DNA from: Mobula hypostoma
Lineage: Eukaryota
Assembly (NCBI RefSeq): GCF_963921235.1
Contig: NC_086108.1
Coordinates: 37,760,001 to 37,820,000, forward strand
Direction of reading: 5' to 3'
Length of the DNA: 60,000 bases
Notes under the pieces: generated by a model
Seen by the model: only the letters and a program-made list of their open reading frames with translations
The model's database searches: none
What the model was told of the DNA's origin: nothing
Program-made: the position numbers and the translations under genes
Shown: one piece after another, positions 6,401 to 44,861 of the stretch
Layout: every line of letters starts with the position of its first letter
How positions within the stretch are numbered: the stretch's first letter is position 1

Positions 6401-7166
6401 GGTAGCGGTAGAGATTGCGGAGGCATTGGTAATGATCTTTCAAAAATCATTGGACCCTGGCATGGTGGCAGAGAATTGGAAAATTTAAAATGTCACTACG
6501 CTCTTTAGGATAGGATGGATAAAGGGGCTGTAGTGGATGTTGTATATTTAGACTTCCAGAAGGTCTTTGACAAGGTACCACACATGAGGCTGCTACCGTG
6601 TTAAGAACCTATGGCATTACAGGAAACTTACTGGCATGGGTTAGAACATTGGCTGATTGGTAGGAGGCAGGGAGTGGGAATAAAAGTATCCTTTTCTGGT
6701 TGGCTGCCAGTAACTAGTGGTGTTCCACAGGGGTCGGTGCTGAGACTGCTTCTTTTTATGCTGTATATTGCTTTGTTGCCAAGTTTGCAGATGATATGAA
6801 AATCGGTGGAGGGTCAAGTAGTGTTGAGGAGACAGGAAGGCTGCAAAAGGATGCAGACAAATTAAGAGAGTGGACAAGAAGTTGGCAAATGAAATACAAT
6901 GTTGGAAAATGCATGATCATGCACTTTGGCAGAAGAAATAAATGTGCAGACTATTTACTAAATGGGGAAAAAAATCCAAAATTCTGAGATACAAAGGGAC
7001 TTGGGAGTACTTGTGCAGAACACTCTAAAGGTTAAGTGTTAGTTGAGCTGGTGGTGAGGAAGGCAAATGCCATGTTAGCATTCATTTCAAGAGGTCTAGA
7101 ATACAATAGCAGGGATATGATGCTGAGGCTTTATAAGGCAAGGGTGAGGCCTCACCTTGAGTATTG

Positions 7167-7239
7167 CTGAAGGGTTTCGGCCTGGAATGTCGAAGTATTT
7201 TTTTCCATAGATGCTGCCTGGCCTGCTGAGTTCATCCAG

Positions 7240-7286
<47 letters not shown>

Positions 7287-7295
7287 GCTCAAATG
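7167..7295 (+). mobile_element. Penelope-like element terminal repeat (pLTR) fragment inserted in CR1
   Basis: ctgaagggtttcggcctggaatgtcga...catagatgctgcctggcctgctgagttcatccagcattttgtgtg..ttgctc is homologous to 11742-11880, 40907-41185 and 43450-43560. It splits the CR1 sequence gagtattg|tgaacagttttgg. Confidence 0.8.
7245..7284 (+). repeat. (TG)20 microsatellite
   Basis: Perfect TG dinucleotide run of 40 bp. Confidence 0.97.
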
Positions 7296-9477
7296 TTGTG
7301 AACAGTTTTGGGTTCCTCATCCAAGAAAAGATGTGCTGGCATTGGAGAGGATTCAGATGAGGTTCACAAGCATGATTGCATAAATGAAAGGAATATCATA
7401 CATGAAACATTTGATAGCTCTGGCTCTGTATTCGCTGGAATTTAGAAGAATGAGGGGGGATCTCATTGAAACCTCCTGAATGCTGAAAGATCTAGACAGT
7501 GTAGATGTGGAAAAGATGTTTCCTATGATGGGGGAATCTTGGACTCGAGGGCAGAGCCTTAGGATAGAAGGGGCATCCATTTAAAACAGAGATGCAGAGA
7601 AATTTCTTTCGCTGAGGGTGGTGAATTTGTGGAATTTATTACCACAGGCAGCCGTGGAGGCCAGGCCACTGGGCGCATTTAAGGCAGAGCTTGATAGGTT
7701 CTTGATTGGACACGGCATGAAAGGTTACAGGGAGAAGGCTGGGAATTGGGATTGAGGAGGAGAAAAAAAGAAGGATCAGCCATGATAAAATGGTGGAGCA
7801 GACTCGACAGCCAAATATGTTTAATGGTCTAAAATTATATTAAGAGTACGCAGCCAATCTCCAGTTATCCTGGAGCTCCATGCCACTGGACTAAGAACTT
7901 ATTCTTCATAGTCTATAAAGTGAATGATATGCAACGGCTGAGGAAAATGAATGTCTTTCTACGACACTCCTTTGTTTGCTATTTTAATGCATTCATTAAC
8001 TTATTTATTTGAAATGAGTTGACTCTGTCAAAACAGTGGCCAAGGAAACATCATATAGGCAAATAAGTATTTATCCACTAATGTGACCAATGGTACCGTC
8101 TAGGTCTTTTTATCATTCGCAAGGCACCAAAACAATAGTTAGAATGAGCACAGAGCCATGAACGGCTGGAAGGAAAAAAAATGTATGTGATATCTCTATC
8201 ACACCATTGTTGCTACTAGATCTAATTAATATATACAAGTCTTATTAGGGCTGTCAGAATCTGTCAGGCTGGTTTATGCATTAATCTTTCACTACACCCT
8301 CATTATGCTAGGTACCTTCGTAACAGGCTGCAGCAAGAAGCATACAAAAATCTTTCCCTGAAAGTACAAATGAATACTCTGAACCTTTGTATCAGACTCT
8401 TCAGACTGTTCCAAAGGAAGTTGTGAAGATCAAGCGTTACTGGGGTATTAAATAACAATCCTACACTGTTGTGACACTATTTCATTGTGGATATTAGGCC
8501 TCAAAGATTGGATTTCATTCAATGTCACACTCACAGTTCATCTGTAATCAACTTTGACCTAAAAGGGGTATTTTCTCAGATTAACTGTACTAAGGACTGC
8601 ATAAAAACTCTTCCAGGACAGTTTGATTTATAGCCTTGTCTTTCTCTGCGTTTTACTCACTTTTAATCTTCCTTGGTAGCAACAAGATTGCCTAATACAA
8701 GAATAAGAAAAAAGATAGAGAAGGTAGGTGAAATAACTATGAATTGTTTTAACAAAACTGTTCACACTTCACCAGATAGATAGTTAGAAAGCGAAAATAG
8801 ATATAGCAAGATAAGTGCTGAAGGCTAAATAACCATGAACAACTCAGCCAGTCTGAAAGGACAATCAGGCACAAAGAGATAAGAGCATCTTCCCAATAAT
8901 GTGAAAACAAGCCTTACACAAGATTAAAATGTCCAAAACAAGGAGAATAAATGCTCTATGAAAACTAGGATGAATAAAAAAACTTAAAATAAACAGCAAT
9001 AGATCCAAATTAACTACTCATATCACTTTGAAACATACCCATTTCTCCCAGCTAACTATATGATAATAATATTCACAAAATATATGTTAGAACAGAGATG
9101 ATAATTTATCAGAAACGTTCAGATCATCATAAATGAGTACCTATTCATTATGAATAACTAAAATAACTAAATTGAAACAGCACTGCTGCTAGGACTGAAT
9201 AAGATGAAATACACCACAGAAACATTTTGCCTTACAGGGCTCAAGACAAAATTAATGAAGAAATTTGACTGCTTACATGGGTTTGAAAAATACAGTTGCA
9301 TAACTAGAATTTTTTTCAGGTTTTTCCAAATGGAAAAGCATTTTTTTTGAAAATGAAATGTGGTACAAGCGCTTCCACATCAGTTTGTATCACTCTGGAA
9401 ATTTGATCGAGCACTTTCTTCTGCTGTGTTGCGATTTTCACATTGGGTGCGTAGGAGATCACATCATTTCTCATGCA

Positions 9478-11741: not shown

Positions 11742-12242
11742 GCGACAACACGAGGAATTCTGCAGATGCTGGAAATTCAAGCAACACACATCAAAGTTGC
11801 TGGTGAATGCAGCAAGCGAGGCAGCGTCTCTAGGAAGAGGTACAGTCGATGTTTCGGGCCAAGACCCTTCGTCAGGACTAACTGAAGGAAGAGTTAGTAA
11901 GAGATTTGAAAGTGGGAGGGGGAGGGGGAGATCCAAAATGATAGGAGAAGACAGGAGGGAGAGGGATGGAGCCAAGAGCTGGATAAGTGATTGGCAAAAG
12001 GGATATGAGAGGATCATGGGACAGGAGACCCAGGGAGAAAGAAAAGCGGGGGGGGGGGAAACCCAGAGGAAGGACAAGGGGTATAGTGAGTGGGACAGAG
12101 GGAGAAAAAGGAGAGCGAGAAAAAGAATGTGTGTATATAAATAAATAATGGATGGGGTACGAGGGGGAGGTGGGGCATTAGCAGAAGTTTGAGAAGTCAA
12201 TGTTCATGCCATCAGGTTGGAGGCTACCCAGATGGAACATAA
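11742..12242 (-). mobile_element. 5'-truncated Penelope-like element (GIY-YIG C-terminus, pyrimidine-rich 3' UTR, pLTR)
   Basis: Minus strand reads ...FHLGSLQPDGMNIDFSNFC* followed by a C/T-rich UTR and the terminal repeat with the hammerhead-like motif. It splits the host CR1 between taatatatgtata and tcttggaattc. Confidence 0.85.
11843..11880 (-). ncRNA. Minimal type I hammerhead ribozyme-like motif (best-preserved copy)
   Basis: Minus strand: UAGUC-CUGACGA-A-GGGU CUUG GCCC-GAAA-C A U C-GACUG. Stem I (UAGUC/GACUG), core CUGANGA, stem II with tetraloop and GAAA are intact. The palindromic ACGU is mutated to ACAU. Confidence 0.7.
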
Positions 12243-12924
12243 TCTTGGAATTCTTTTTAATCCTATTTGTTAAGGACTTTTCAAGGCCACACTTGGCTCT
12301 CCCAATTCCCTTCTCGAGTGCTATCCTGGCTTCTTTATAATCTTACTGGAATAAACCTAACCTGTACTGAGCAGTTGATCTTTAAACATCCTCCAAATGT
12401 TGGATATGAACTTGCCCAATTGTTAACACCAAATAACAACTGTTAGCAATTAATTCTCTCTAGTTCCTGTCGAATATTTTTGCAACTTTCCTTTTCCAAT
12501 GAAACACTCTCATAAAATCAATATTTATCCTTGTATTTTGCTGCCTTAAATTTTAAGGAGTTGTGAGCATTGTTTGTTAACTGGTACTCCACTGAAACGT
12601 CAGTCACTATGCCACCTCATTATCCAACACCAGGTCAGTATGGCTCCTTCTCTTGTTAGACGATCTCCATATCGATTTAGAAATCTTCCTGAATGCACCT
12701 AACTAATTCTGCCCCATTTAAACTTCTTGCACTGAGGAATTAAATTAAATAAGTGGAAGTCACTTACTACATCAGCTCTGTTTTTACACCTTTCCCTAAT
12801 CTGCTTGCATATCTGTTCCTCAATGTCCAAGTGACTATTGGGGGTGTGTAGTATACATCTCAAGGGATGAGCCTTCATCATGTCCCTTCTAAATGCAACT
12901 GTAATATTACCCTTGATTCAGTTT

Positions 12925-15549: not shown

Positions 15550-18236
15550 AGACTGTAAGACCAGATTTAGGCCATTCAGCCCATCGAGTCTGCTCCGCCA
15601 TTCCGTCATGGCTGATCCTGGATCCCACTCAACCCCGTACACCTGCCTTCTTGTCATTTTCTTTGATGCCCTGACCAATCAAGAAACGATCAACTTCCGT
15701 CTTAACTATACGCACGGACTTGGCCTCCACCGCAGTCAGTGGCAGAGCGTTCCACAGACTTACGACTCTCTGGCGAAAAAAATTCCTCATTACTTCTGCC
15801 TTAAAGGTTGCCCCTCAAGTTTGAGTTGTGCCCTCTGGTTCTAGATACCCCCACCATAGGAAACATCCTCTCCACATCCATCCTATCTAGCCCTTGCAAC
15901 ATTCGGTAGGTTTCAACAAGATCCCCACACTTTCCTTTACGTTACAGTGAGAACAGGCCCAAAGTTGCTAAATACTCCTCATATGCTGAAGACTTCATTC
16001 GCAGAATCATTCACAGAATCATCCTCATGAACCTTGGCTGGACTCTCTCCAACGGCACCACACCCTTTCTGAGATAAGAGGCCCAAAACTGTTGATAATA
16101 CTCCAAGTGCGTCCTGACTACTGTCTTATATAGGCTCAGCATTATCTCCTTGCTTTTATATTCTATTTCCCTTGAAATAAATGCCAACGTTGCATTTGTC
16201 TCCTTTAACACAGACTCAACCTGTAAATAACCTTCTGGGAGTCTTGCCCCTCTGATATTTGAACCTTCTCCCCATTTAGATAATAGTTTGCACTGTTGTT
16301 CCTTTTATCAAAATGCATTATCATACAATTCCTAACAATCTATTCCATCTGTCACTTTTTTGCCCATTCTTCCAATTTGTTTAAGTCCTACTGCAATCAC
16401 ATTGACTCCTTGGCACTACCTACCCCTTCTCCTATCTTCATATCCTCCGCAAACATTGCCACAAATCCATCAATTCCATTATCTAAATCATTGACAAAAA
16501 ATATGAAAAGTAGTTGTCCCAATACTGACCCCTGAAGAACATTGCTAGTCACTGGCAGTCAACCAGAAAGGGTCCCTTTTATTTCCACTCGTTGCCTCCT
16601 GCCTGTCAACCATTTCGTTATCCATGCCAGTATCTTTCTTGTAACACCATAGGATTTTATCTTGTTAAGCAGCCTCATGTGTGCCGCCTTTTCAAACACC
16701 TGAAATTCTAAGTAAATGACAGCCACCGTCTTTCCTTTTTCTACCCTGCTTGTTACTTAACATAGAAAACATAGAAAATAGGTGCAGGAGTAGGCCATTC
16801 AGCCCTTTGAGCCTGCTCCGCCATTTATTATGATCATGGCTGATCATCCAACTCAGAACCCCGCCCCAGCCTTCCCTCCATACCCCCTGACCCCCGTAGC
16901 CACAAGGGCCATATCTAACTCCCTCTTAAATATAGCCAATGAACTGGCCTCAACTGTTTCCTGTGGCAGAGAATTCCACAGATTCACCACTCTCCGTGTG
17001 AAGAAGTTTTCCTAATCTCGGTCCTAAAAGGCTTCCCCTTTATCCTCAAACTGTGACCCCTTGTTCTGGACTTCCCCAACATCTGGAAGAATCTTCCTGC
17101 ATCTAGCCTGTCCAATCCCTTTAGGATTTTATACGTTTCAATCAGATCCCCCCTCAATCTTCTAAATTCCAACGAGTACAAGCCCAGTTCATCCAGTCTT
17201 TCTTCATATGAAAGTCCTGCCATCCCAGGAATCAATCTGGTGAACCTTCTTTGTACTCCCTCTATGGCAAGGATGTCTTTCCTCAGATTAGGGGACCAAA
17301 ACTGCACACAATACTCCAGGTGTGGTCTCACCAAGGCCTTGTACAACTGCAGTAGTACATCCCTGCTCCTGTACTCGAATCCTCTCGCTATAAATGCCAG
17401 CATACCATTCGCCTTTTTCACCGCCTGCTGTACCTGCATGCCTGCTTTCAATGACTGGTGTATAATGACACCCAGGTCTCGTTGCACCTCCCCTTTTCCT
17501 AATCGGCCACCATTCAGATAATAATGTTTTCCTATTTTTGCCACCAAAGTGGATAACTTCACATTTATCCACATTAAATTGCATCTGCCATGAATTTGCC
17601 CACTCACCCAACCTATCCAAGTCACCCTGCATCCTCTAAGCATCCTCCTCACAGCTAACACTGCCACACAGCTTCGTGTCATCCGCAAACTTGGAGATGC
17701 TGCATTTAATTCCCTCATCCAAGTCATTAATATATATTGTAAACAACTGGGGTCTCAGCACTGAGCCTTGCGGTACCCCACTAGTCACCGCTTGCCATTC
17801 TGAAAAGGTCCCGTTTATTCCCACTCTTTGCTTCCTGTCTGCTAACCAATTCTCCATCCGCATCAATACCTTACCCCCAATACCGTGTGCTTTAAGTTTG
17901 CACACTAATCTCCTGTGTGGGACCTTGTCGAAAGCCTTTTGAAAATCCAAATATACCACATCCACTGGTTCTCCCTTATCCACTCTACTAGTTACATCCT
18001 CAAAAAATTCTATGAGATTCGTCAGACTTCTTCAAAGAACTCTATCAGATTAGTCAGGCAAGATTTCCCTTTACAGAAACTATGCTAACTTTGACTTATT
18101 TTATCATTAGTCTCCAAGTACCCCAAAACCTCATCCTTAATAATAGCTTCAAACACTTTCCCAACCACTGAGGTTAGACTAACTGGCCTATGATTTCCTT
18201 TCTTTTGCCTTTCTCCCTTCTTAAAGAGTGGAGTGA
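15550..18236 (-). mobile_element. 5'-truncated CR1 LINE (RT + 3' UTR), interrupted by a younger CR1
   Basis: 3' UTR at 15550 (tttaggccattcagcccatcgagtctgctcc). Reverse frames LAFISREIEYKSKEIML and ITPLFKKGERQKKGNHRPVSLTSVVGK. Confidence 0.85.
16759..18025 (-). mobile_element. Younger 5'-truncated CR1 LINE (RT C-terminal half)
   Basis: [28 protein letters not shown] and RPHLEYCVQFWSP, with only small frameshifts. Tail (TTTTCTATG)n. Flanked by ACTT on both sides (16755-16758, 18026-18029). Confidence 0.92.
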
Positions 18237-19369
18237 TAGGATGATAATGATACAACAGTAGGATTCCCTTTCTTCTTTCCTTTGATCCCACCAGCCTCCA
18301 CATTCAACGCATTAACCTCTATAATTTCTGATACACTTAATGCAAGGTCACCACCACCCTCCACTCCCCTGTCAGCTTTAAAAGGAACTATTCTTTCCAG
18401 GATGCTCTGGGTTCATTTTTACTGATGTTTACTTCACTTCTTGCAGCACCTTCTCATGCAATTACAGGAAATGCCGCACCTGCCCTTTAATGCTTTCCCA
18501 TTATCAAGGGTCCTTTCAGATGGAATAGCAATTAACATGCATTTCATTCAATTTGGTATAATACAGTCAGTTTCCTCTATGTTAGAGAAACCTGAGGTAG
18601 ATTAAATAACCACTTTGCAGAAATCTCCAGTTAGTTCGTAAGCATAGGCCTGTTATCAATCTTCAGCCACTTAATTTCTCCATTTTTCTCCCAATTTGAC
18701 TCCTGTTTTTAGCCTCATTCATTTCCCCAATAATCTCAGATATACAGCATATCAAATTCCTACCAGGCACCTTACAGCCTTCCAAACTTAATGTTGCATT
18801 CAACAATTTCAGATAAACAGACACTCCTTATATATCCACAATTCCAATTTTTTTCTATCGATTATAAAATTCTGATGAGACATCATGCGCCTGGAATCTT
18901 AACTCTTATGTTCTCTTGGCACAACCTGCTGCTTAACCTGTGCAGCTCTTTGAGCATTTTATATTTTATTTAGAAGTAATTTCACATGGAAAAAGCAGCG
19001 GCCTTCTTTGCATATTATTAATGTGCACAAGTGCTAACATTGAGTGATTAACTGCATTTCTTGTAAATAACATAAAAGGTTGGCCATTTCAGTGTCAATG
19101 ATAATTATGCACAATGCCATTACTTGATGACAATCGGGAAGTAATTAGCTAATTACCAAGAACTAACAGGAGGAGAAAATATTACTAAGTATGCAGTAAT
19201 AGAAATAATAAATTTGTTTCAAGAACATGCATCACTTCTATTAATTATTGAAAACAACGAAGGATACGATGGATATTTTTCCTTGGTAGACTTCCATTCA
19301 ATTAAGAAGTTCCTAATTTATTGGTGCTCTATATTATTATACTCAAGTGCTTAATGTAATCATAAAAGG

Positions 19370-19970
19370 TAATGAGCCTTTTATTTCAAGGGGACTAGAA
19401 TTTAAACATGAGGAAGTGAAGTGTCAGCTATTGAGTACTTGTTCAATTTTTCTAAACTTCAAGGAAGATAACTAGCTCTTGAAAGGGTACAGTACAGATC
19501 CACCAGAATTATACAATAGCTCAGTGGGTTGAATTCTGAAGGATAGTTGCATGGATTTGGTCTGTATTTCATTCATGAAGGGATGAGAGGTGCTAAATGA
19601 AATGATCAATATTAAGAGATTGATATTAAGAAATTGATCAATAGAGCAGATGGAGAAAACCTAAATAATCTGGTGGCAGAATCTAAAGTGGGAGGGAATA
19701 ATCTTAAAATCTGTGCTGTGATATTTTGGATCAAAGTTAAAAACGTGCTTTCATATTAAGGTTACTGAAATCACGATCTCAGTTCCCCAAAAAAAGGCTG
19801 TGCTTGGATTGTTAAGGCAAAGATCGATAGACTTTAATTAGATGGGAGTATCAAGGGATACAGTTTGAAGGTAGCTGGATGGAATTGGAGTTTCGATCTG
19901 CCATGAACTAATTAAATGGTACAGAGGATTATTGGGCTGAATAGCCTTTTTTTATTTCTATTTCCTATGC
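19370..19970 (+). mobile_element. Old CR1 3' fragment
   Basis: Degenerate match to the CR1 RT end (gcctttatttcaaggggactagaatttaaa) and 3' UTR (gggctgaatagcct...ttcctatg). Confidence 0.6.
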
Positions 19971-22557
19971 AACTAACTTAGCTAATGAACTGATATTCAT
20001 CTGTTTGAAAAGTTAACCTAAGATCATTATACCTGGTAACTATTTTTAAAGAAGCATTCTCAGGTTAAGAAGGATGTTTAGCATTCTCCAAAAGTGTGCC
20101 TTCTGTGAAAAGGAATCCAAGGCAGAAGTGAATCAATACTCATCTACGATGATGCTTCAGTGAAGATAATCTTCCAGACGATCTCTATAAATTTACTGGA
20201 AGTTTTAAGAATCCAGCTGATGAAGGCTGACTTTGCTACATAAAGTCTGAAGGCAATAATGAATCAGAAATAAGTGGGAGCTAATTATAGACAGGGGCAA
20301 CCAGACACCAGCTGTAGTAAGAAATGTACCACAGGTGATAACTAACATTACAAAATTATTGCTGCTTTTGTGAATTGAAGGGCCTGCATATTTTTTTCAA
20401 GCATTCAAAGGTTAGAGACAATAAATCAGAACAAATATGTATGTGCATGAAAGAAAGATGTGGTTGCAAATTAGAAGATCAAGAAAAGCTACACAGATGC
20501 ACAGAAATACAAGTGAGCAGTTAGGAAAGTAAAAGCAGATTTGGAAATAACAAGATTACCTAAATAATTATTACAAGCCATATGCAAGAGTGAATGTAGC
20601 TAACAGATGAAGTATATTCAAAAAGATTTTTAAAAAATAGCTCCAAGCTCATTATATGACTGACTGGTACTATTTATTTGGCAGTTGTGAATAAGGACTC
20701 ATGACTCTATATCATGCAGGAGGAATAAATAAAATGATATGCTAGAATTCCTACAATTTCTGAATCAGCATACAGTCAATGTGCACACATCCACTAAATG
20801 GTGGACTCCTGGGAATCAGAGAATCAATTGCACAAGATGGTAATAACCCAAAGCACAATACATAACAATGACAACTTTCCCATGGGAAGTTCTGGAAGGT
20901 GCTGTTAAATCTGGAACACCACAAAGACATTGTGATAAGTAGCGTAGTAAATAATTTATTATGCGTGGTGTGTAACTACAGTATATGTATGATTTAACAA
21001 TATGGCACACACACAGACAGAAAACAGAGTACATCTAATAATTTGTTTAAGAATATTAAATGTCTATAAAATTATTAATTTTAAGATGAAGTAGGTGAAA
21101 AGGGAAATTTGAAGTTTTAGTTGTAAACACGTTTAAGAGTATAATAAATTGAAGCTGGTGCTGCTTAAAAAGAAATACCAGTTTTATGGGGAATAAATGG
21201 TCACAGAGCACTTACATACCAAGATGACATGGTCAAAAAGGTGCTTAAAGACAATATACAAATTCTGCTTCAACATCATCTGGAAGACTCCAATTGCAAA
21301 ACAAGCGTACAAATGATCAAAATGAGTGTCACAGAGATTAGCTCTAGCTGTACATGGATTGAAACTGCAATATGTTTGTCATCAAAGGTGTCCTTTAGAG
21401 ACCAATCTACAGAAAAGCAAGTCTTTCAATGACAGCTTTAATGCAGTGAGAAGGATTGTGAGCACTCATTTCAGCCCCACAAAAATCTTTGCAGTCCCGG
21501 CTTTGCTTTTTGTGTGATTTGTATTCCCAATCCCCAGTTGTGTAAACTACCAATGAACTCTTTGTGCTAAGCCCCCTATTGAGCTATGCCACGAGAAACC
21601 AATAAAGTGAAATGAGCAGCACAACACTGCACTCCCATAAGGTGCAACCAAAGTCTAAGTAATGCTTCTCGGCAGTTACTACTGCGATGAACTGAAAAAT
21701 TGAATTTTTGAGAGTAAGAGAGGACAGATCACTGGCATAATTAAACAAATCAGAATCATTAATGTTCTCGTTGTTATTTACAAAAGTATAAAAACAAACA
21801 GCCAATGTTGTAAGGCTTCATTTCCAGCAGGATGCTGCAACTGAACGAGCCATAGTTCAGAATTACAGGAGTACTGTCAAGGCTCTTCTTCCTGTGTTTC
21901 ATGAGCATCTATTCCCAGTGGAAGGAAGCAATTAGAAAATTATCCCTTTAATTGCATAAAACATTTTGGAGAGCTGCTAAGCAGAGACTGTGCAGTTACC
22001 GCAGAAACCGAGATTTTTCAATGGGAATCTAGTGTGATATACAGAAGCATTAAAATTTTTAAAGGAAACAAGTTGTTTTGAGTGAACTGATATATACATA
22101 AGAGTGTGTACAATGAGTTATTCATAGTTTTTCCCTCACATTTCTCCCAGGCTTGCAATAAGCAATCTGTATGTTCACTGCTGTAAGTGCAATCATGCCA
22201 GTATTTCTCTGCATCCATCCTCTAAAAAAGATAAATTTAACAGAATTAGACTTACCCTCTTATTCTTCAGGTAAGAGAGCAGTGAAGCTTCATTTGGAAA
22301 TTATTTAATGTGTTTTGAATTGATATAAAGATCCAGTGCTGTAGATAGTAACACATTGTACTTTTAATTCAGTATTTTCACAGTGCTCAACTTCTTCAAA
22401 CGGTGGTATTTAAAAGACAACTCAGCTATTTTTGACTTATTTCTGCAGTCTGTAGCACTGCCGTATGGATGCAATAAAGAACACAGGCTAAGGGTTCAAT
22501 GTATTTCTGCAACTGAGTGAGCTGCCTTGGCAAAGGGTGACCGGTGGGGTTCCTGTT

Positions 22558-23372
22558 TAGACTATAGAACATAGAACAGTACAGCACAAAAGCAGGCCAT
22601 TTGGCCCACAGTAGTATGCTGAACCAAATAGTGATCAAATGGCAAACTCAACTAATCCCAATGCTTACACAATGTCCGTACACTTTCATTATCTGTACAT
22701 TCATTGGCTGTCTAAACCTATGCACCCTCTGCAAAGCCTCAACATCCTTCCTATAATGGGGCAACTTAAGGCATCTGTTAGTCTTGCGAGACCATGGATC
22801 TGTGCCTGGAAAATCTTCACTCTCCAGGTCGCAGGCCTGGGCAAGCTTGTATGGAAGACAGGCAGTTGCCCATGCTGCAAATCTCCCCTCCCCACGACAC
22901 CGATGTTGTCCAAGGGAAGGGCATTAGGACCCATACAGCTTGGCACCGGTGTCATTGCAGAGCAATGTGTGGTTAAGTGCTTTGCTCAAGGACACAACAC
23001 GCTGCCTCATCTGGGACTCAAACTCACGACCTTCAGGTCGCTGGAATGGGGCAACTGAATTGCAGTATATCCAATACTCCAGATGCGGCCTAACTAGAGT
23101 TTTATACAACTGCAACATAAACTCCTGACCTTTGAACTCAATGCCTCGACTAATAAAGGCAAATATGCCATGTGCCTTCTTAACCACCGTATCAACCTGT
23201 GTATCCACTTTAAGAGCCATGAATTTGGACCCCGAGATAAATCTGTTCGTCAAGACTGTTAAGAGTCTTCCATGTAACAGTACTGTCTCAGTATATTTGA
23301 CCTACCAAAGTGCAATACTTTACATTTGGCTGGGTTAAACTCCATCAGGCATTTCTCTGCCCAAATCTGCCA
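22558..23372 (-). mobile_element. CR1 3' fragment with internal deletion, interrupted by a SINE
   Basis: Tail atagaacatagaacagtacagcaca. Reverse frame QVDTVVKKAHGIFAFISRGIEFK..LVRPHLEY. Confidence 0.8.
22767..23044 (-). mobile_element. tRNA-derived CORE-type SINE, 5'-truncated
   Basis: Reverse-complement homologue of 54271-54590. Perfect 12-bp TSD AATGGGGCAACT (22755-22766, 23045-23056). Confidence 0.88.
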
Positions 23373-23377
23373 CTAAA

Positions 23378-24148
23378 GATAAGTGTGAGGTGGTTCATTT
23401 TGGTAGCTCAAATATGATGGCAGAATATAGTATTAATGGTAAGACTTGGTAGTGTGGAGGATCAGAGGAATTTTGGGGTCTGTGTCCATAGGACACAAAG
23501 CTGCTGTGCAGGTTGACTCTGTGGTTAAGAAGGAATGCGGTGCATTGGCCTTCATCAATCGTGGGATTGAGTTCAAGAACCAAGAGGTAATAGGACCATG
23601 GTCAGACCCTACTTGGAGTACTGTGCTCAATTCTGGTCGCCTCACTACAGGAAGGACGTGGAAACCATTAGAAAGGGTGCAGAGGAGACTTACAAGGATG
23701 TTGCCTGGATTGGGGAGCATGCCTTACGAGAATAGGTTGGGTGAACTCGGCCTTTTCTCCTTGGAGCGGTGGAGGATGAGAGGTGACCTGATAGTGCATA
23801 AGATGATGAGAGGCATTGATCGTGTGGATAGTCAGAGGCTTTTTCCTCGGGCTGAAATGGCTAACATGAGAGGGTACATTTTTAAGGTGGCTGGAAGTAG
23901 GTACAGAGGAGATGTCAGGGGTAAGTTTTTCACGCAGACAGCGGTATGTGGAATGGGCTGCCGGCAAAGGTGGTGGAGGCGGATACAATAGGGTCTTTTA
24001 AGAGACTCTTGGTTAGGTACATGGAGCTTAGAAAAATAGAGGGCTATGGGTAACCCTAGGTAATTTCTAAAGTAAGTACATGTTTGGCACAACATTGTGG
24101 GCCAAAGGGCCTGTGTTGTGCTGTAGGTTTTCTGTGTTTCTATGTTTT
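23378..24148 (+). mobile_element. CR1 3' fragment
   Basis: QVDSVVKK..ALAFINRGIEFK, ERVQRRLTRMLPGL, LFSLERWRMRGDLI. Its 3' UTR is of the same family as 37106-37778. Confidence 0.88.
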
Positions 24149-24173
24149 TAAAGAAACAGCACAGTAGAATAGT

Positions 24174-24569
24174 CGTTATCTACATTTGGATATGGCCCAA
24201 GTGCGGAGTAAGAGACACCGGAGCGGTTGGTAGTTCACAGACTTTAATGCGAACAGAGTTAGAAGGAAAAGAAATCAATAAACGCCAGGCTAAACAGGGC
24301 CATTAACTAAAACTGTCATATGGAAAACAAAGCCAATACTGCGGCTGAAAGAAATAAACAAATATAAAACAAATTCCGCTAGTCTTCAGAGTCAGTTGAC
24401 TCAACCATCCAATTTCTCATGCAAGGCCGAATGTAAGCAGGCAGCAAAATATTGCTGTGCTTTGCTCAAGTCTCAACAAGCGCTGCGACAAAAAAAATGG
24501 AGTTAAAAACCATCACAACAAAATCAGAATTAGCTGACACATGCATATTCACAAGCGTCAATCTGTACA
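24174..24569. mobile_element. Possible solo LTR
   Basis: ~395-bp CpG-containing segment ending in TGTACA. It shares cccaagtgc with the 14670 element and has ATTAAA on the minus strand. The left TG end and TSD are not clean. Confidence 0.3.
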
Positions 24570-25478
24570 TTGTCCAACAACAGGAAGGTCTATAATGGAT
24601 CTGGTGTTGAATAATGAGACTGGCTAGGTGACTGAACTTTCAGTGGGTGAGCTGTGAGGGGACAGTGACCACAACTCTTTCAGTTTTAAGATAGCAATAG
24701 ATCAGGATAAGTATGAACCTTGTGGGAGAGTTTTAAATTGGAGCAGGACAAACTACAAGAGCATTAGACTGGAACTAGGGAAAGTTAATTGGGATCAGCT
24801 GTTTTTCCGACACGTGAAGGGTGTTTAAAGAATGACTGCAAAGAGTACAGGGTAGGTATGTTCCAGTCAGAAGCCAGGACAAGAATGGCAAGGTAAGGGA
24901 ACCTTGGATTTTGAGGGAGGTATTGAATTTAGTCAAGAAGGAAAAGGAGAAGTATGTAAAGCTTAGGAAGCAGGAATCAAACAGGGCCCTTGAGGATTAT
25001 AAAAGCCAGAAAAGAACTCAAGTAGGGAATTAGGAAAGCCTGGAGGGACAAAAAAGGTCCTTAGGAAGTGGAATTATAGAGAATCCCATGTGTTCTATAC
25101 ATACATCAGGAGTGAGAGGATAACAAGGGAGAGGGTGAAACCACTCAAGGATAAAGGGGGAAACACTTGCTTGGATGCGAACGATGTGGGTGAGGTCCTG
25201 CATGATAACTTTACATCAAAATTTACGAATGTTGAGGACATGGAAGATAGGGAGATCAGTGTATTAATTATGCTAGGACTTTTCAATGTAATGGAGGAGG
25301 TAGCGTTGAGCCTCTGAAAGAGCATAAAGGTGGCTAAGTCCCCAGGGCCTGATGGGATATATCCCAGGCCCTGATGGGATATACCCCTGGTTATTGAAGA
25401 GATTGCTGGGGCCTTGACTAGTAACTTTATGTCCTCTCTAGCCACAGGCAAGGTCCTAGCAGTTTGGCATGTAGCTAA
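24570..25478 (+). mobile_element. CR1 ORF2 internal fragment (endonuclease end to pre-RT region)
   Basis: DLVLNNE, DSDHNSF, FYTYIRSERITRERVKPLKDKGG and KSPGPDG. Contains a 22-bp tandem duplication at 25341-25387. Confidence 0.8.
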
Positions 25479-25870
25479 GTTTTTTTCCAGAATTCAAAGA
25501 ATGGGATCTGCTCACTGTCATGTGATTTCCTTCCAAACACTGGGTGATTATGTAGGAAAATTTTACATCAATGGATCCTTCCAAGGCTCCACTTTTGACA
25601 AGTTCCACGTCAGCAGTCAATGCTTCATAGATGAATCACTTGTTTACATTGATCCTATTCTTGTTGCATGAAGGAAGCAGCAATTAATGAGCTGCAGTAC
25701 ACCCCACAGGTGAAGAGGTTCGCAGAAACAAAAGGCAAAACAACAATACAGGTATGCATCACTTAACGTCCACGATACGTTCTGTGAAATTGGACGTTAT
25801 GTGATTTGGACATTGTGCAAACACCATATTACAGTATATAATTAGAAAACCTATATGGAGTATTGTAGTG

Positions 25871-27124
25871 CAGCGGTCCCCAACCACCGGGCCGCGGACC
25901 AGTACCAGACCGCAGAGCATGTGCTACCGGACCGCGAGGAAACGATATGATTTGGCGATATGAGTCAGCTGCACCTTTCCTCATTCCCTGTCACGCCCAC
26001 TGTTGAGCTTGAACGCATGTGAGGTCATTACGCACGCGTCATCCATGTCAGTCCGGGAAGAGGATCAACTCCTCGAGCTTGCGAATGACGACGGGCTGAA
26101 AAGTATATTTGACATAACATCTCTGCTGGCATTTCGGATCAAAGTCAAGGCTAAATATCCTGAGATAGCCACAAAAGCACTGAAAATGTTGCTTCCATTT
26201 CCAACATATCTCTGCAATGAATGCAACGAAAACTAAATTGCAGATTAGACTGGACATAAGGAACCCCGTTCGAGTATCGCTGTCTCCCATCACCCCTCAA
26301 TAGGACCGTCTTGTTGCAGGGAAACAAGCCCAGGGCTCCCACTGATTCAGCGATATTGGTGTGTTGCAATGATTTTATATGTTCATATCTGGAAAATATG
26401 TGCTGTGTGTTTAATATCCAAACGCTACTTAAAATGTTATGATGCTATTGATTTATAGGTGATTTATATAACCATATAACAATTACAGCACGGATACAGG
26501 ACATCTCTGCCCTTCTAGTCCGTGCCGAACATTACTCTCACCTAGTCCCACCGACTTGCACTCAGGCCATAACCCTCCATTCCTTTCCTGTCCATATACC
26601 TATCCAATTTTTCTCTAAATGATAATATCGAACCTGCCTCTACTACTTCTACTGGAAGTTAGTTCAACACTTACTTCAAGCTCCCCTGTCCTTCCCTGAT
26701 AATTGACTTATCACTATATTCATGCATGGAAAATACGTGCTGTGTGTTTAATATTAAATGTGTTAGATAAGCCCTTTTAGAAATGAAATTGAGTGTATTA
26801 GTGACTTTATCATCTATATTCCGGTTGTGATTAACACCGCACCCCCCCACCCCGACCAGAATCGCCAGAAACGATTTGTAGGAAAAAATCAGCACTTACA
26901 CGCATGCGCAAGTGACGCATACGCACACAGGTGCCCACGCAAGGCTTCATGGTCATGGCAGTCTTTCTCGGGGTAAACACAACGTATTTGACTGCTACTC
27001 TTGTCCGTTGGCAACCCTATCCACGCAACCGCTCCCCCCACCCCCCCGCCCCGGGTCAGCCGGTCCACAAGAATATTGTCAATATTAAACTGGTCCGCAG
27101 TGCAAAAAAGGTTGGGGACCCCTG
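25871..27124 (+). mobile_element. Non-autonomous Charlie-like hAT transposon with transposase C-terminal remnant and captured CR1 tail
   Basis: TIRs CAGCGGTCCCCAACC / GGTTGGGGACCCCTG. 8-bp TSD TTGTAGTG/CTGTAGTG. ORF 26003-26236 (KVKAKYPEIATKALKMLLPFPTYLC) resembles the hAT dimerisation domain of Charlie/Buster transposases. Confidence 0.9.
26468..26668 (-). mobile_element. CR1 3' end embedded within the hAT element
   Basis: Reverse complement matches the 3' UTR and TATGGTTA tail of the CR1 at 53260-53452. Confidence 0.88.
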
Positions 27125-31422: not shown

Positions 31423-33524
31423 ATAGAACATAGAACATAGAATAGTACAGCACAGTACAGGCCCTTCGGCCCACAATGTTGTGCCGACCCTCAAACTCTG
31501 CCTCCAATATAAGCCCCCACCTTAGATTCCTCCATATACCTGTCTAGTAGCCTCTTAAACTTCACTAGTGTATCTGCCTCCACCACTGACTCAGGCAGTG
31601 CATTCCATGCACCAACCACTCTCTGAGTAAAAAACCTTCCTCTAATATCCCCCTTGAACTTCCCACCCCTTACCTTAAAGCCATGTCCTCTTGTATTGAG
31701 CAGTGGTGCCCTGGGGAAGAGGCGCTGGCTATCCACTCTATCTATTCCTCTTATTATCTTGTACACCTCTATCATGTCTCCTCTCATCCTCCTTCTCTCC
31801 AAAGAGTAAAGCCCTAGATCCCTTAATCTCTGATCATAATCCATACATTCTAAACCAGGCAGCATCCTGGTAAATCTCCTCTGTACCCTTTCCAATGCTT
31901 CCACATCCTTCCTATAGTGAGGTGACCAGAACTGGACACAATACTCCAAGTGTGGCCTAACCAGAGTTTTATAGAGCTGCATCATTACATCGCGACTCTT
32001 AAACTCTATCCCTCGACTTATGAAAGCTAACACCCCATAAGCTTTCTTAACTACCCTATCCACCTGTGAGGCAACTTTCAGGGAACTGTGGACATGTACC
32101 CCGAGATCCCTCTGCTCCTCCACACTACCAAGTATCCTGCCATTTACTTTGTACTCTGCCTTGGAGTTTGTCCTTCCAAAATGTACCACCTCACACTTCT
32201 CCGGGTTGAACTCCATCTGCCACTTCTCAGCCCACTTCTGCATCCTATCAATGTCTCTCTGCAATCTTTGACAATCCTCTACACTATCTACAACACCACC
32301 AACGTTTGTGTCGTCTGCAAACTTGCCAACCCACCCTTCTACCCCCACATCCAGGTCATTAATAAAAATCACGAAAAGTAGAGGTCCCAGAACAGATCCT
32401 TGTGGGACACCACTAGTCACAATCCTCCAATCTGAATGTACTCCCTCCACTATCACCCTCTGCCTTCTGCAGGCAAGCCAATTCTGAATCCACCTGGCCA
32501 AACTTCCCTGGATCCCATGCCTTCTAACTTTCTGAATAAGCCTGCTGTGTGGAACCTTGTCAAATGCCTTACTAAAATCCATATAGATCACATCCACTGC
32601 ACTACCCTCATCTATATGCCTGGTCACCTCCTCAAAGAACTCTATCAGGCTTGTTAGACACGATCTGCCCTTCACAAAGCCATGCTGACTGTCCCTGATC
32701 AGACCATGATTCTCTAAATGCCTATAGATCCTATCTCTAAGAACCTTTTCCAACAGCTTTCCCACCACAGACGTAAAGCTCACTGGTCTATAATTACCCG
32801 GACTATCCCTACTACCTTTTTTGAACAAGGGAACAACATTCGCCTCCCTCCAATCCTCTGGTACCATTCCCGTGGACAACGAGGACATAAAGATCCTAGC
32901 CAGAGGCTCAGCAATCTCTTCTCTCGCCTCGTGGAGCAGCTGGGGGAATATTCCGTCAGGCCCCGGGGACTTATCCATCCTAATGTATTTTAACAACTCC
33001 AACACCTCCTCTCCCTTAATATCAGCATGCTCCAGAACATCAACCTCACTCATATTGTCCTCACCATCATCAAGTTCCCTCGCATTGGTGAATACCGAAG
33101 AGAAGTATTCATTGAGGACCTCGCTCACTTCCACAGCCTCCAGGCACATCTTCCCACCTTTATCTCTAATCGGTCCTACCTTCACTCCTGTCATCCTTTT
33201 TTTCTTCACATAATTGAAGAATGCCTTGGGGTTTTCCTTTACCCTACTCGCCAAGGCCTTCTCATGCCCCCTTCTTGCTCTTCTCAGCCCCTTCTTAAGC
33301 TCCTTTCTTACTTCCCTATATTCCTCAATAGACCCATCTGATCCTTGCTTCCTAAACCTCATGTATGCTGCCTTCTTCCTCCTGACTAGATTTTCCACCT
33401 CACTTGTCACCCATGGTTCCTTCACCCTACCATTCTTTATCTTCCTCACCGGGACAAATTTATCCCTTACATCCCGCAAGAGATCTCTAAACATCGACCA
33501 CATGTCCATGGTACATTTCCCTGT
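31423..33524 (-). mobile_element. Young 5'-truncated CR1 LINE with an uninterrupted RT reading frame
   Basis: The ORF is open from 33509 (ATG) to 31491, 672 aa: [58 protein letters not shown]. Tail (TTCTATG)n. The endonuclease domain is absent. Confidence 0.95.
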
Positions 33525-35679
33525 AGTCCATAGTACATATCCTGAAGTAGGAAGGTGAACAGCCAGATGTCGTGGTATATATTGGTGCCAACGACATAGG
33601 TAGGAAAAGGAAAGAGGTCCCGAAAACAGACTACAGGGAGTTAGGAAGGAAGATGACAAGGCGGGCCTCAAAGGTAGTAATCTAGGGATTATTTCCTGTG
33701 CCACGCGACAGTGAGTATAGGAATAGAGTGAGGTGAGGATAAATGCATGGCTGAGGGATTGGAGCGGGGGGCAGGGATTCAGATTTCTGGGTCATTGGGA
33801 CCTTTTTGGGGCAGGTATGACCTGTACAAAAAGGACGGGTTGCCCTTAAATCCGAGGGGGACTAATATCCTGGCGGGGAGGTTTGCGAAGGCTATTGGGG
33901 AGAATTTAAACTAGAATTGCTGGGGAGTGGGAACCAAACTGAAAAGACAGAGGAAGGGGATGTTGGCTCACAAATAGAGAAAGCTTGGAGACAGTGCAAG
34001 AGGGAGGCTAGGCAGGTGATAGAGAAGGGATGTGCTCAGACCAAAGGTTTGATGTGTCTATTTTAACACTAGGAGTGTTGTGAACAAAGCAGATGAGCTT
34101 AGAGCATGGATCAGTACTTGGACATATGATGCAGTGGCCACTACAGAGACTTGGATGGCTCAGGGACAGGAATGGTTACTTCAAGTGCCGGGTTTTAGAT
34201 GTTCCAGAAAGGACAGGGAGGGAGGCAAAAGAAGTGGGGGGTGTGGCACTGCTGATCAGAGATAGTGTCATGGCTGCAGAAAAGGAGGATGTCATGGAGG
34301 GATGGTCTACTGAGTCTCTGTGGGTGGAAGTTAGAAACAGAAAGGGGTCAATAACTCTACTGGGTGTTTTTAATAGACCAACCAATAGTAACAGGGTCAT
34401 CGAGGAACAGATAAGGAGACAGATTCTGTAATGGTGTAATAATAACAGGTTTGTTGTGGTGGAGATTTTAATTTCCCAAATATTGACTGGCATCTCCCTA
34501 GAGCGAGGGATTTAGATGGGCTGGAGTTTGTTGGGTGTGTTCCGGAAGGTTTTCTGACACAATATGTAGATAAGGATATAAGAGGAGAGGCTGTACTTGA
34601 TCTGGTATAGGGAAATGAACCTGGTCAGGTGTCAGGACTCTCAGTGGGAGAGCATTTTGGAGATAGTGATCACAATTCTATCTCCTTTACTATAGCATTG
34701 GACAGGGATAGGAACAGACAAGTTAGGAAAGCATTTAATTGGAGTAAGGGGAAATATGAAGCTATCAGGCAAGAACTTGGAAGTATAAATTTCGAACAGA
34801 TGTTCTCAGAGAAATGTAGCAAATGTTCAGGAGATATTTGCGTGGGTTTCTGCATAGGTATGTTCCAATGAGACCGGGAAAGGATGGTATCAACGGGGAT
34901 GGGAGGGGTTCCAGAGGATTGGAGGGTTGCAGATGTTGTTCCCTTATTCAAGAAAGGGAGTAGAGATAGCCCAGAAAATTATGGAGAGTGAGTCTTATTT
35001 CAGTGGTTGGTAAGTTGATGGAAAAGATCCTGAAGGGCAGGGTTTATGAACATTTGGAGAGACATAATATGATTAGAAATGGTCAGCATGGCTTTGTCAA
35101 AGGTAGGTCATGCCTTACGAGCCTGATAGAATTTTTTCAGGATGTGACTAAACACATTGATGAATGTAGAGCAGTTGATGTAGCGTATATGGATTTCAGC
35201 AAGGCATTTGATAAGGTACTCCATGCAAGGCTAATTGAGAAAGCATAGAGGCATGGGATCCAAGAGGACCTTGTTTTGTGGATCAAGAATTGGCTTGTTC
35301 ACAGAGGGAAAAGACTGGTTATAGACAGGTCATATTTTGCATGGAGGTCGGTGACCAGTGGTGTGCCTCAAGGATCTGTTCTGGGATCTCTTCTCTTCGT
35401 GATTTTTATAAATGACCCGCATGAGGAAGTGGAGGGATGAGTTAGCAAAATTTGCTGATGACACTGAGATTGGGGGTGTTGTGGATAGTGTGGAGGGCTG
35501 TCAGAGGTTACAGCAGGCTATCAATAGGTTGCAAAACTGGGCTGAGAAGTGGCACATGGAGTTCAACCCATATAGTGTGAGGTGGCTCATTTTGGGTAGG
35601 TCAAATATAATGGTAGAATATAGTATTAATGGTAAGACTCTTGGCAATTTGGAGGATGAGGGATTTTGGTTCTGAGTCC

Positions 35680-40906: not shown

Positions 40907-41186
40907 TCACAAGACACTGGAGGAACTCAGCAGGTCGGGCAGCATCCGTGGAAACGATCAGTCAACGTTCGGGCCAGAACCCTTCGTCAGGACTCAGATT
41001 TAAACTTCTTCAGGGTAGGCATACCTCAAAGAGACTTCGCAGTGGAGTAGCAAATTGTAAATAGAAAATACTCTGCAGATGCTGGGGTCAAAGCAATACT
41101 CACAACACGCTGGAGGAACTCAGCAGGTTGGGCAGCATCTATGGAAACAATCAGTCAGCATTTCGGGCCGGAACCCTTCGTCAGGT
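40907..41186 (-). mobile_element. Miniature Penelope-derived element with two tandem terminal repeats, each carrying a hammerhead-like motif
   Basis: ~85-bp direct repeats at 40907-40991 and 41100-41185 (period ~194 bp). Both contain CTGACGAAGGGTTCYGGCCCGAA on the minus strand. Confidence 0.82.
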
Positions 41187-41852: not shown

Positions 41853-43292
41853 TTAATACTGTTTATGATTCCCAGGTTACATAAAAGTCCATCACTACAG
41901 TACCCCAACAATATATGTTGTTGATTAGTAATTGATAGCATCAAAATATACCCCTTATATTCACTGAAGTGATAGAAAATATGTAATCTTCAATAACTTG
42001 AAAATTCTTGCAACTTTTATGTTCAGACTAATGTTACAGTTCTGTTTACAAAAACAAATCATAACTAATGGAAGGAAACAACAAAATAAACTTTAAGTTA
42101 CAAATCACAATCGAAAAGAATAAAAATTCACAAGCTTTTTGTAGGGTGGTTTTTTAGAGGGTGTGACAAAAGTGACTTAAGGAGTAGTCATGACTAGAGG
42201 AACAATCAATGCAGTAGAAAGTCAGCATCAAACAGTGTCCTAAGTGGAAAACAGAGGGATGAGTGATGTGATGGTATTAGGTTTGCTGACCATGAAGTTC
42301 CAAGCTCAAAGACCTTGAGTCTGATCTGATATAGATAGCTAGGGGTACGCTTAATCAAGGAAGGTAATACTGTCATTACCAAAATTTCAAAGACTGGTTC
42401 ACTTCCCTGTTCATTCTCCACAGCAGATTTAGCTGCCAATACTCACTACTTGAGTGATGGGTGCCCCCCCACCCCCGACTAAGGAGGAGATATTTTCAGC
42501 TAGCAATGTAGTTTAAACACCGTTCATTTATTTTCAGTGATACATGTTTAAATTCAAACAACATTCTTAAAACACATTTAAAAGAGGATTTCCATCTGAT
42601 GAAAGACTTCCAAATTACAAACTATTTCTAAAACGCCAAGGATTTGCAAAGCATAGGTACAATTCCTGTAAGCTAAAAAGTCATACCCACATACTGCAGA
42701 CGAACCAGTCATCTATCGCAGAAATCAAAGGCAGAAGAATGGATTCTAAATTAACTCATGCTCTGTCATGCTTCTTGATGTTGCTGGACTATTCCTAAAA
42801 AGCTAAAACTACTCTCTCAATTTAGACTGCTTCTTTCCCACTTCGGTGTCTTCACACAGATGATCTTCTTTTTCAGATGCCTTTTGACGCAAGCAGTCTA
42901 AGTGCTTCTGAAGACAGAGTTTCCAGGTACCCACAATTAATGTTGCGAAGCTGACTCACTGATCATCCAACTTGTTAATAGAGCAGCTATTGATATGCCA
43001 AATAATGATATCAATCTGGTCTGAGCTCTTCCTTGAACTAAACAACTTAGCCAACAGATAAGGATGTAACTACGAATGAGCTGTTCATGAGAACCTTCAA
43101 ATCAATCATTTGGGGCATGGAGAGATAGTGATATAGGAATGGAGGGATAGAGTAACCTTGAATGATAAAATTATTGGATGGTCCGTCTCTGGACTATTAC
43201 CATATCAAATTATAATTTGCACAAGGATGTAATAAATATAAAGTAACTTAAGCAGGTATTTACTGTGCTTTAATCTGCTATAAAAACAAATT

Positions 43293-43568
43293 CATCCCCT
43301 TCTTCTTCCCACTCTCCTCTTCTGTCAGATTCTTTCTTCTCCAGCCCTTTACCTTTCCCACCCACCTGGTTTTACCTATCACTTTCTAGCTTGTCTTCCT
43401 TCCCTACCCCCACCAGTTTATTCCGGAGTCTTCCCCCCTTCCTTTCCACTCCAGGGTCTTGGCCTAAAAAGTCATCTATTTTCATAGATGCTGCCTGACC
43501 TGCTGAGTTCATTCAGCATTTTATGTGTGTTGCTTTCGCTTACCAGTATATACAGAACCTTTTGTGTT
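43293..43568 (+). mobile_element. Penelope-like 3' UTR/pLTR fragment (hammerhead core deleted)
   Basis: C/T-rich tract, then ctcc[TGANGA lost]agggtcttggcctaaaaagtca...atagatgctgcctgacctgctgagttc..cagcatttt.tgtgtgttgc. Confidence 0.75.
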
Positions 43569-44861
43569 CAAAAATATCCTGTCCTTTCTCTGTGTTACTT
43601 TTCCAAAAGGAGGAAGAATGAAATGACACAAAATGTAGCACATTGTGTAGGAGCAGTAAAGATTCTAGATGTGTTCAAGGCCAGTGAGAAGGTTTCAACA
43701 TCGTAATCCACAGGGATTTTCCACAAAATGTAAGGCCAATGCTACTTGCTCTCAGAGCTTTCTGATTTTTAATATTTTTAAACAATAACAAATCTTCATC
43801 AAATTCTGAAGTTTTAGAAATTATATTGAGCCATAATCTGCTGTAATTGGGAAGCAAATGGTGCCTAGTTTGTTTAATCTGGTTTATTCACATTTAATTA
43901 CTGTCCCAAACTGCCTGAATGAGGAAACAAATATGCAGGGCCTTAACAAATCAGAGTGAAGGATAGATAAAACCTTAAAACAAAGATGGAAGGAAGTTTA
44001 AATTAAAGTAGATGAATCCAATTTCAAATCAGATAAACAATGAGAAATTTTTGCTCCATTCTATCGTTGCTGGGAAAATAGGCAGCAAAATTATACCGTT
44101 ATGTTTACCTTTCCATTTTTGAAAAATAGTCAACCTTAGGCTGAACACTTCACACATTATCAAATCACATTTTGTGATTCGCTGTCCAAGATTATTGCAG
44201 AATTTGATTAAATTATCCCTCATTGCATACTGAACAGGGCTGTCATCAATCTTCTTTAATTAGTTTAGCATAAACATTTATCAAGGTTGTTTGACATGAC
44301 AGGTTTTAAAGACTATAAGAGCTTCAAGTTCAATAAATTTCTTTATGCATTTGACCAATTTTTACTAGTTTCCTGTAATATCTTGAATCTCTTTGTATCA
44401 GAGATTGAAGGTAATGGACATAATATGATGCATTCAAAGAGCCACAATCTGTCCACCAGCCTAAAGTAGTTAAGTATCTTTCATTCTTCCATCAGAATAG
44501 TTTGCAATTAAAAAAAGGAGAATGAAGCACTCAGGGAATACTTTCAGAGAACAGCACCTTCAAATTGCCTTGATTTCTTTTAAAAAAGCTAGCAAAATTG
44601 AAGTTGACATAAAAAGGATTTTCTATTCAGTGAATCATTCCCCTCCCATAGAGATCAACACATTAGATCTCCATTTAAAGTTAGAGTTGTTATCATTTAT
44701 ACCATGGGGAAAGAATTGATTTCTGACAGTCTGGACAGAAAGCCAACATGCAAGGTCTCCATGGGAGAAACAATTCAAAGTAATTGAACAATTGCTCTTA
44801 TGAAGTTTTTCCACACTCTTCTCCCAACACAGTATGTATGAGAAGATGTAGCAACTTTCCA

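What the first reader, a model, noticed from the sequence alone, without database searches (positions are those of the whole stretch)
40907..41186. Tandem hammerhead-ribozyme mini-element (retrozyme-like) just downstream of the KCNT2 exon, in sense orientation
Seen: two ~85-bp direct repeats ~194 bp apart. On the minus strand they read AGUC-CUGACGA-A-GGGU UCUG GCCC-GAA(-)CGUU-GACU (40959-40994) and C-CUGACGA-A-GGGU UCCG GCCC-GAAA UGCU-GACUG (41152-41185). There is no coding sequence between them. Established: Penelope-like retroelements carry minimal type I hammerheads with a palindromic, stemless helix III that are thought to act as dimers, and non-autonomous tandem-hammerhead elements (retrozymes) give short circular RNAs. 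Inference: this is an ORF-less Penelope derivative whose ancestral transcript could fold a double hammerhead and release a ~194-nt monomer or circle. It would be co-transcribed in KCNT2 pre-mRNA ~460 nt after the 5' splice site. Both copies here have core lesions (one lost an A of GAAA; the other lost ACGU and the 5' arm of stem I), so this copy may be dead even if the family is active.
Basis: partly seen in the sequence, partly recalled or inferred. Interest (0 to 1): 0.75.

Follow-up and report, generated by a model that had tools for sequence, protein, structure and literature searches.

The report
Dead twice-copied Penelope leader, not retrozyme
The two hammerhead motifs in this potassium-channel intron are real but broken, and are likely one accidental insertion in which a very common Penelope-type jumping gene copied the front of its own RNA twice, so the piece is predicted not to release a circle and is ordinary in kind.

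Summary
The repeats are real: 86 nt, 88% identical, cores 194 nt apart, 463 nt below a KCNT-family exon, in sense. They belong to a very abundant hammerhead-bearing repeat of Penelope type (three more copies in the window). The spacer is not unique filler: in contigs of this species and a relative it runs on into the element's body (146 of 1,129 and 90 of 610 laid contigs), and 0 of 32 listed pieces cross the junction at 40995. This locus's own junction was not listed either, so a low-copy family is not excluded. Two relatives lack the element at both edges, so the insert is 40907-41185 and copy 1 likely never had its stem I arm. A double hammerhead could then cut once at most; later lesions break both sites. 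Best reading: reverse transcriptase ran off the RNA's 5' end at the hammerhead foot, jumped to codon 9 and ran off again (0.55). The retrozyme and circle reading is not supported. This scan has noted similar units before, in this genome and others. Interest 0.17.

The parts
40907..41185 (-). Whole insertion, 279 nt, no target-site duplication
   Evidence: Organism C contigs stop matching at 40906 and 41186 and each run on 241 other letters; one organism E contig spans both flanks with 476 other letters between; organism B holds both element edges (table 8)
41153..41185 (-). Hammerhead copy 1: core 41184-41178, stem II 41176-41165, GAAA 41164-41161, damaged helix III strand (U16.1 is C at 41158), predicted cut after 41157, stem I 3' arm 41156-41153; stem I 5' arm absent but for C41185
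   Evidence: edge
41100..41152 (-). Rest of the pLTR-like repeat, copy 1
41062..41099 (-). Likely 'tail' segment where most family copies end (limits approximate)
   Evidence: summed contig depth falls 16-fold between bins 41065-41083 and 41046-41064; the window copy at 11879 ends here too; tail defined in PMC11167929, PMC8557442
41023..41061 (-). Leader of the longer element (likely 5' UTR)
   Evidence: multi-copy in all runs laid
40996..41022 (-). ATG plus eight codons, likely the start of the element's ORF
   Evidence: the family continuation table 7 has no stop in this frame for 10 codons (read by eye; weak, one other frame is also open)
40995..40995 (-). Single G at the junction, not from the leader's continuation
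   Evidence: against table 7; whether it is untemplated is inferred
40960..40994 (-). Hammerhead copy 2: stem I 5' arm 40994-40991, core 40990-40984, stem II 40982-40971, GAA lacking one A, predicted cut after 40964, stem I 3' arm 40963-40960
   Evidence: table 4
40907..40959 (-). Rest of pLTR-like repeat, copy 2, ending 83 nt after C3
41649..41748 (-). Host KCNT-family exon (context)

Best explanation
This 279-nt insert holds the first 190 nt of an abundant hammerhead-bearing repeat followed by its first 88 nt again, and was likely made in one Penelope-type retrotransposition event in which the reverse transcriptase ran off the RNA's 5' end at the hammerhead foot, jumped onto a leader at codon 9, and ran off at the hammerhead again; both hammerheads are broken and are predicted not to cut. 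Shown: the anatomy, the edges, the leader identity of the spacer, the lesions. Inferred: priming about 83 nt below C3; run-off at 40994 leaving one extra G; the jump; the second run-off at 41185; loss of about 470 nt of host DNA with or after the insertion; an age between the split from organism C and the split from organism B.
For: Both copies begin at the hammerhead foot: copy 1 one base before C3, copy 2 exactly at the first base of stem I; a third window copy, inside a CR1-type LINE, also begins in the core (7165-7169). A random deletion would end within 3 nt of that point with odds of about 0.01 to 0.001 for a 300- to 3,000-nt target (crude). The leader runs on into one shared continuation in 146 of 1,129 (X1), 90 of 610 (X9) laid contigs; 0 of 32 listed pieces bridge 40995. 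7 of 10 differences between the copies are CpG-type, compatible with near-identical templates and decay since. Internal priming and tail: PMC11167929. One X1 contig joins the same leader to a hammerhead start at another joint (table 5c), so such joints arise independently.
Against: No genome was held, so the junction was not counted genome-wide; this locus's own junction contig was not listed, so absence is weak for low copy numbers. What normally precedes the hammerhead in this subfamily was not shown, so the G may be templated. The 3' end at +83 is shorter than the usual tail and there is no target-site duplication; a later deletion could explain both. No RT or GIY-YIG domain was found. The run-off idea was sharpened by unchecked earlier notes of this scan.
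Confidence: 0.55

Rival explanations
1. A full-length Penelope-type copy (5' pLTR, ORF, 3' pLTR) inserted here and later lost its body by one DNA deletion from codon 9 to the second hammerhead.
For: Partial tandems with two pLTRs are the usual layout (PMC8557442); internal deletions are described (PMC3846280); the site also shows loss of host DNA. Both bases of one CpG differ between copies (41141-41140), which fits two slightly different pLTRs.
Against: The right break sits exactly at the stem I foot with no body sequence left and no microhomology seen; no intermediate state in organisms B, C or E.
Confidence: 0.22
2. One reading: a low-copy non-autonomous family (non-LTR retrozyme) with a 194-nt unit that is cut by paired hammerheads, circularised and copied by the Penelope enzyme; this locus is one decayed member of 1.4 units.
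For: Unit size and minimal type I motif fit non-LTR retrozymes (PMC7229834); such elements are reported in one chondrichthyan genome and derive from pLTRs (bioRxiv 10.64898/2026.07.22.740005). The family core is intact (extra A in 25, 12, 5, 3 contigs). The junction test lacked a working positive control.
Against: 0 of 32 listed pieces cross the junction; the leader's dominant continuation is the element body. The unit as a circle: -39.9 kcal/mol against -38.0 +/- 4.1 for 200 shuffles. A template circle closed at the cut site would give the same junction only if a parent locus already had it.
Confidence: 0.13
3. Two independent stubs: a second Penelope insertion landed at the head of an earlier stub.
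For: Copies are dense (5 in 60 kb); the enzyme can nick its own pLTR (PMC11167929); the double CpG difference hints at two templates.
Against: Both copies are of the same minority subtype (88% to each other, 69-84% to the other window copies); no relative laid shows one stub alone; no duplication at the joint.
Confidence: 0.07
4. The motif is kept by selection and cuts or regulates the channel pre-mRNA.
For: Sense orientation, 463 nt from the donor; copy 2 forms stems I and II with pairing probabilities 0.88-0.97.
Against: Core lesions in both copies, those of copy 1 shared with organism B (its three differences all lie in the flank); absent in organisms C and E; decay is CpG-type; single minimal motifs did not cut in vitro (PMC4209133).
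Confidence: 0.03

Closest known systems
Minimal type I hammerheads in pLTRs of metazoan Penelope-like elements (Cervera and De la Pena 2014, PMC4209133; parts 1-2 of 4 read)
   Same: CUGANGA and GAAA boxes, extra base between 9 and 10.1, G10.1-C11.1, palindromic helix III strand with no loop, 4-bp stem I, mostly dispersed truncated copies
   Different: Both motifs here are damaged; stem II is 4 bp rather than 7-8; two motifs lie 194 nt apart rather than about 3 kb
EN+ Penelope-like insertions with partial tandem pLTR and tail (PMC8557442 and PMC3846280, passages; PMC11167929, parts 1-2 of 4)
   Same: 5' truncation, head-to-tail pLTRs, 3' end downstream of the hammerhead, ORF starting near the pLTR
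   Different: Almost the whole body is missing; no inverted pLTR; no target-site duplication; clade and protein not determined here
Non-LTR retrozymes of animals (PMC7229834, part 2 of 6 and passages; bioRxiv 10.64898/2026.07.22.740005, parts 1-3 of 5)
   Same: Tandem type I hammerheads, unit in the 150-450 bp range, no full ORF, pLTR ancestry
   Different: Only 1.4 units; neither motif complete; junction not seen elsewhere; unit not self-paired beyond chance; no RNA evidence

Membership tests
Non-LTR retrozyme | At least two consecutive units, each with a complete hammerhead (criterion of the 2026 preprint) | tested here: not met
   1.4 units; both cores damaged, copy 1 without stem I arm
Non-LTR retrozyme | The unit, with its junction, recurs as a family | tested here: inconclusive
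   0 of 32 listed pieces bridge 40995, but own junction not listed either; no genome
Non-LTR retrozyme | Stable, highly self-paired circular unit | tested here: not met
   z -0.46 against 200 dinucleotide shuffles
Non-LTR retrozyme | Expressed as linear and circular monomers | not testable with these tools
   only contigs of runs guessed to be RNA were on hand
Minimal type I hammerhead (PLE type) | Core boxes, stem II with G-C base and extra base, palindromic helix III strand, stem I | tested here: met
   met by the family as read from the two copies and majority letters; not met by either genomic copy alone
Minimal type I hammerhead (PLE type) | Self-cleavage as a dimer | not testable with these tools
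   forced dimer fold costs 23.5 kcal/mol for the genomic sequence; no assay
Rfam hammerhead families | Covariance-model match | tested here: not met
EN+ Penelope-like element | RT plus GIY-YIG ORF | tested here: inconclusive
   only a 21-residue ORF end at about 12240-12180 was available; no true relative found
EN+ Penelope-like element | pLTR with hammerhead, 5' truncation, 3' tail | tested here: met
   five window copies aligned; depth step at 41064
EN+ Penelope-like element | Target-site duplication (optional in PMC3846280) | tested here: not met
   best flank match 6 of 12 or 4 of 7

The most novel reading that the evidence does not exclude
Run-off at the hammerhead foot plus re-priming near codon 9-13 is a preferred route of the Penelope enzyme, which repeatedly builds about 200-nt hammerhead-to-hammerhead units; those with both stem I arms intact become transcribed, circularise and found low-copy retrozyme families, and this locus is a decayed witness of how animal retrozymes are born.
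Probability: 0.12. Interest if true: 0.55.

Novelty: new member of a known kind. Interest (0 to 1): 0.17.

Why it matters
For the host gene, probably not at all: the motifs are broken and lineage-restricted. As a data point it bears on two open questions: where Penelope reverse transcription stops, and how pLTRs turn into tandem retrozymes (the 2026 preprint states ancestry but leaves the mechanism open). One dated junction with empty sites in relatives is useful only as part of a genome-wide count.

Tried and rejected
Whole genome not held, so no BLAST count of the junction. Rfam: nothing. Pattern scans for the element in metagenome, viral and prokaryote collections: 0 matches in 4 scans. Protein searches with the short ORF end of the 11879 copy: 0 of 29 candidates; 1 hit, a repeat-rich unrelated protein, rejected; no Pfam family; no Atlas hit. 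No RNA holder listed; two runs guessed to be RNA hold the leader with the body continuation (9 of 36, 7 of 30 contigs) and no listed junction piece, which says nothing on expression or circles. Earlier findings by sequence and near this place: none. Back-splicing as origin of the junction: rejected by eye, since the leader's continuation does not start with GT and the AG before the core is kept. Tandem Repeats Finder does not report the unit. Two pairings were mis-indexed and were redone. Summed depths (flank 12, spacer 16,000-26,000, pLTR up to 4.8 million) are not copy numbers and are used only as rough ratios.

Full report
Observation. On the minus strand two 86-column repeats (41185-41100, 40991-40907) are 88.4% identical (E 1e-25). 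Their CUGACGA cores lie 194 nt apart. The exon at 41748-41649 matches KCNT1 chains and its donor is 463 nt above the element; KCNT2 rather than KCNT1 was not tested. Rfam gives no ribozyme. Three more copies of the repeat lie in the window at 7169-7251, 43453-43536 and 11759-11879. That the animal is a ray comes from earlier notes of this scan and my recall, not from a call of mine.

Ribozyme anatomy. Read against PMC4209133 (parts 1-2 of 4), the motif is a minimal type I hammerhead: 4-bp stem I, core, one extra base, 4-bp stem II, GAAA, a palindromic strand in place of helix III. The family core is intact: the A missing from copy 2 is present in 25, 12, 5 and 3 contigs of four runs, and majority letters differ from copy 1 at 41160 and 41158. 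In a double hammerhead the core of copy 1 cuts copy 2 and needs copy 1's stem I 5' arm; the core of copy 2 cuts copy 1 (established hammerhead geometry). The first site has 1 contiguous pair of 4 in stem I; the second lacks one A and has C at 16.1. Predicted pairing of helix III and of both cross stems is 0.00; forcing the dimer costs 23.5 kcal/mol, and with point lesions set back 13.9 (one site) or 24.7 (both). These are model energies and ignore protein help, which PMC11167929 found necessary for the anole element, and pairing in trans with other transcripts. The 193-nt cut-to-cut unit folded as a circle is no more stable than 200 shuffles (z -0.46).

Edges and age. Of 24 runs listed I laid six, four per call, two of them twice. 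In one search, organism B holds both element edges; its right-flank contig covers 41152-41320 with three differences, all in the flank, so it shares the lesions of copy 1. Organism C's contigs stop matching at 40906 and 41186 and each continue 241 other letters; one organism E contig spans both flanks with 476 other letters where the window has 287. Flank differences are 5 of 333 (B), 11 of 262 (C), 13 of 243 (E). So the insert is 40907-41185, likely arose after the split from C, has no target-site duplication, and likely replaced about 470 nt. I did not see those letters, so their nature is unknown. Copy 1 starts at the edge, so its stem I arm was likely never there, and the ancestral transcript of this locus could not release a monomer in cis. 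7 of 10 differences between copies are CpG-type.

The spacer. It is multi-copy (summed depth about 1,300-2,200 times the flank, about 145-fold below the pLTR part; rough). Matches stop at 40996 and go on into one shared sequence in 146 of 1,129, 90 of 610, 9 of 36 and 7 of 30 laid contigs. An ATG at 41022 opens nine codons that end at 40996, and the continuation stays open for ten more codons (by eye; weak). So the spacer is likely tail, 5' UTR and ORF start of the longer element. None of the 32 pieces shown (1,783 not shown; the longest are kept) bridges 40995. Against this: the locus's own junction was not shown either, probably because assembly prunes low-depth paths between high-depth repeats (inference), so only a large family is made unlikely. 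A few single-copy rearranged joints near 40996 did survive, one of them joining the leader to a hammerhead start by a different joint (tables 5 and 5c).

Mechanism. Shown: both copies start at the hammerhead foot, one G separates leader and stem I, the 3' end lies 83 nt below C3. Known: the anole element primes inside its RNA about 111-118 nt into an ORF that starts at the hammerhead, which makes the tail (PMC11167929, parts 1-2 of 4). Inferred: priming in the pLTR, run-off at an RNA end at the foot, an added G, a jump to codon 9 of a leader, and a second run-off (0.55). A later DNA deletion of a full-length copy gives the same parts but must hit the foot by chance (0.22). A low-copy retrozyme family is not excluded (0.13). 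The RT and endonuclease were not found, so Penelope identity rests on the hammerhead, tail and truncation pattern, on earlier notes and on recall.

Comparison. Works like: a rearranged Penelope insertion with pLTR hammerheads. Not a member of non-LTR retrozymes by the criterion of bioRxiv 10.64898/2026.07.22.740005 (parts 1-3 of 5), which asks for two consecutive complete motifs; that paper already reports such elements in one chondrichthyan, about 43% of Xenopus copies in introns, and cleavage for 1 of 9 dimers tested. PMC7229834 (part 2 of 6 and passages) describes the expressed, self-paired circles that this unit does not resemble. PMC8557442 and PMC3846280 were seen as passages. Two paper searches showed no paper on ray pLTR junctions; supplements were not read. 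Earlier notes of this scan (unchecked) describe stubs that begin at the hammerhead foot and several one-off tandem units in this genome; they are leads, not support.

Verdict. Real, dead, ordinary in kind. Interest 0.17; new member of a known kind.

Noticed in passing
window 7165-7297 (+): Solo stub of the same repeat inside a CR1-type LINE, starting within the hammerhead core, with a (TG)20 expansion and what looks by eye like an 11-bp target duplication decayed at a CpG.
   Followed up: partly
window 11745-12245 (-): About 500-nt 3' fragment of another subfamily inside a CR1-type LINE: 21-codon ORF end, pyrimidine-rich region, hammerhead with a change in the palindrome, full tail.
   Followed up: partly
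window 43290-43580 (+): Decayed 3' fragment with pyrimidine-rich upstream region, core partly deleted, tail present; start approximate.
   Followed up: partly
window 40996-41044, in runs X1, X9, X11: A few contigs repeat 37-49 nt of the leader, with joints 0-13 nt beyond 40996; a possible re-priming hot spot, but the tool shows only joints with up to 40 letters between.
   Followed up: no
window 40907-41185 in organism C: Both flank contigs run on by exactly 241 letters beyond the element edges; unexplained, perhaps chance.
   Followed up: no
window 31491-33791 (-): 766-codon open frame of a CR1-type LINE reverse transcriptase, the longest of many LINE fragments in the window (family name from recall).
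   Followed up: no
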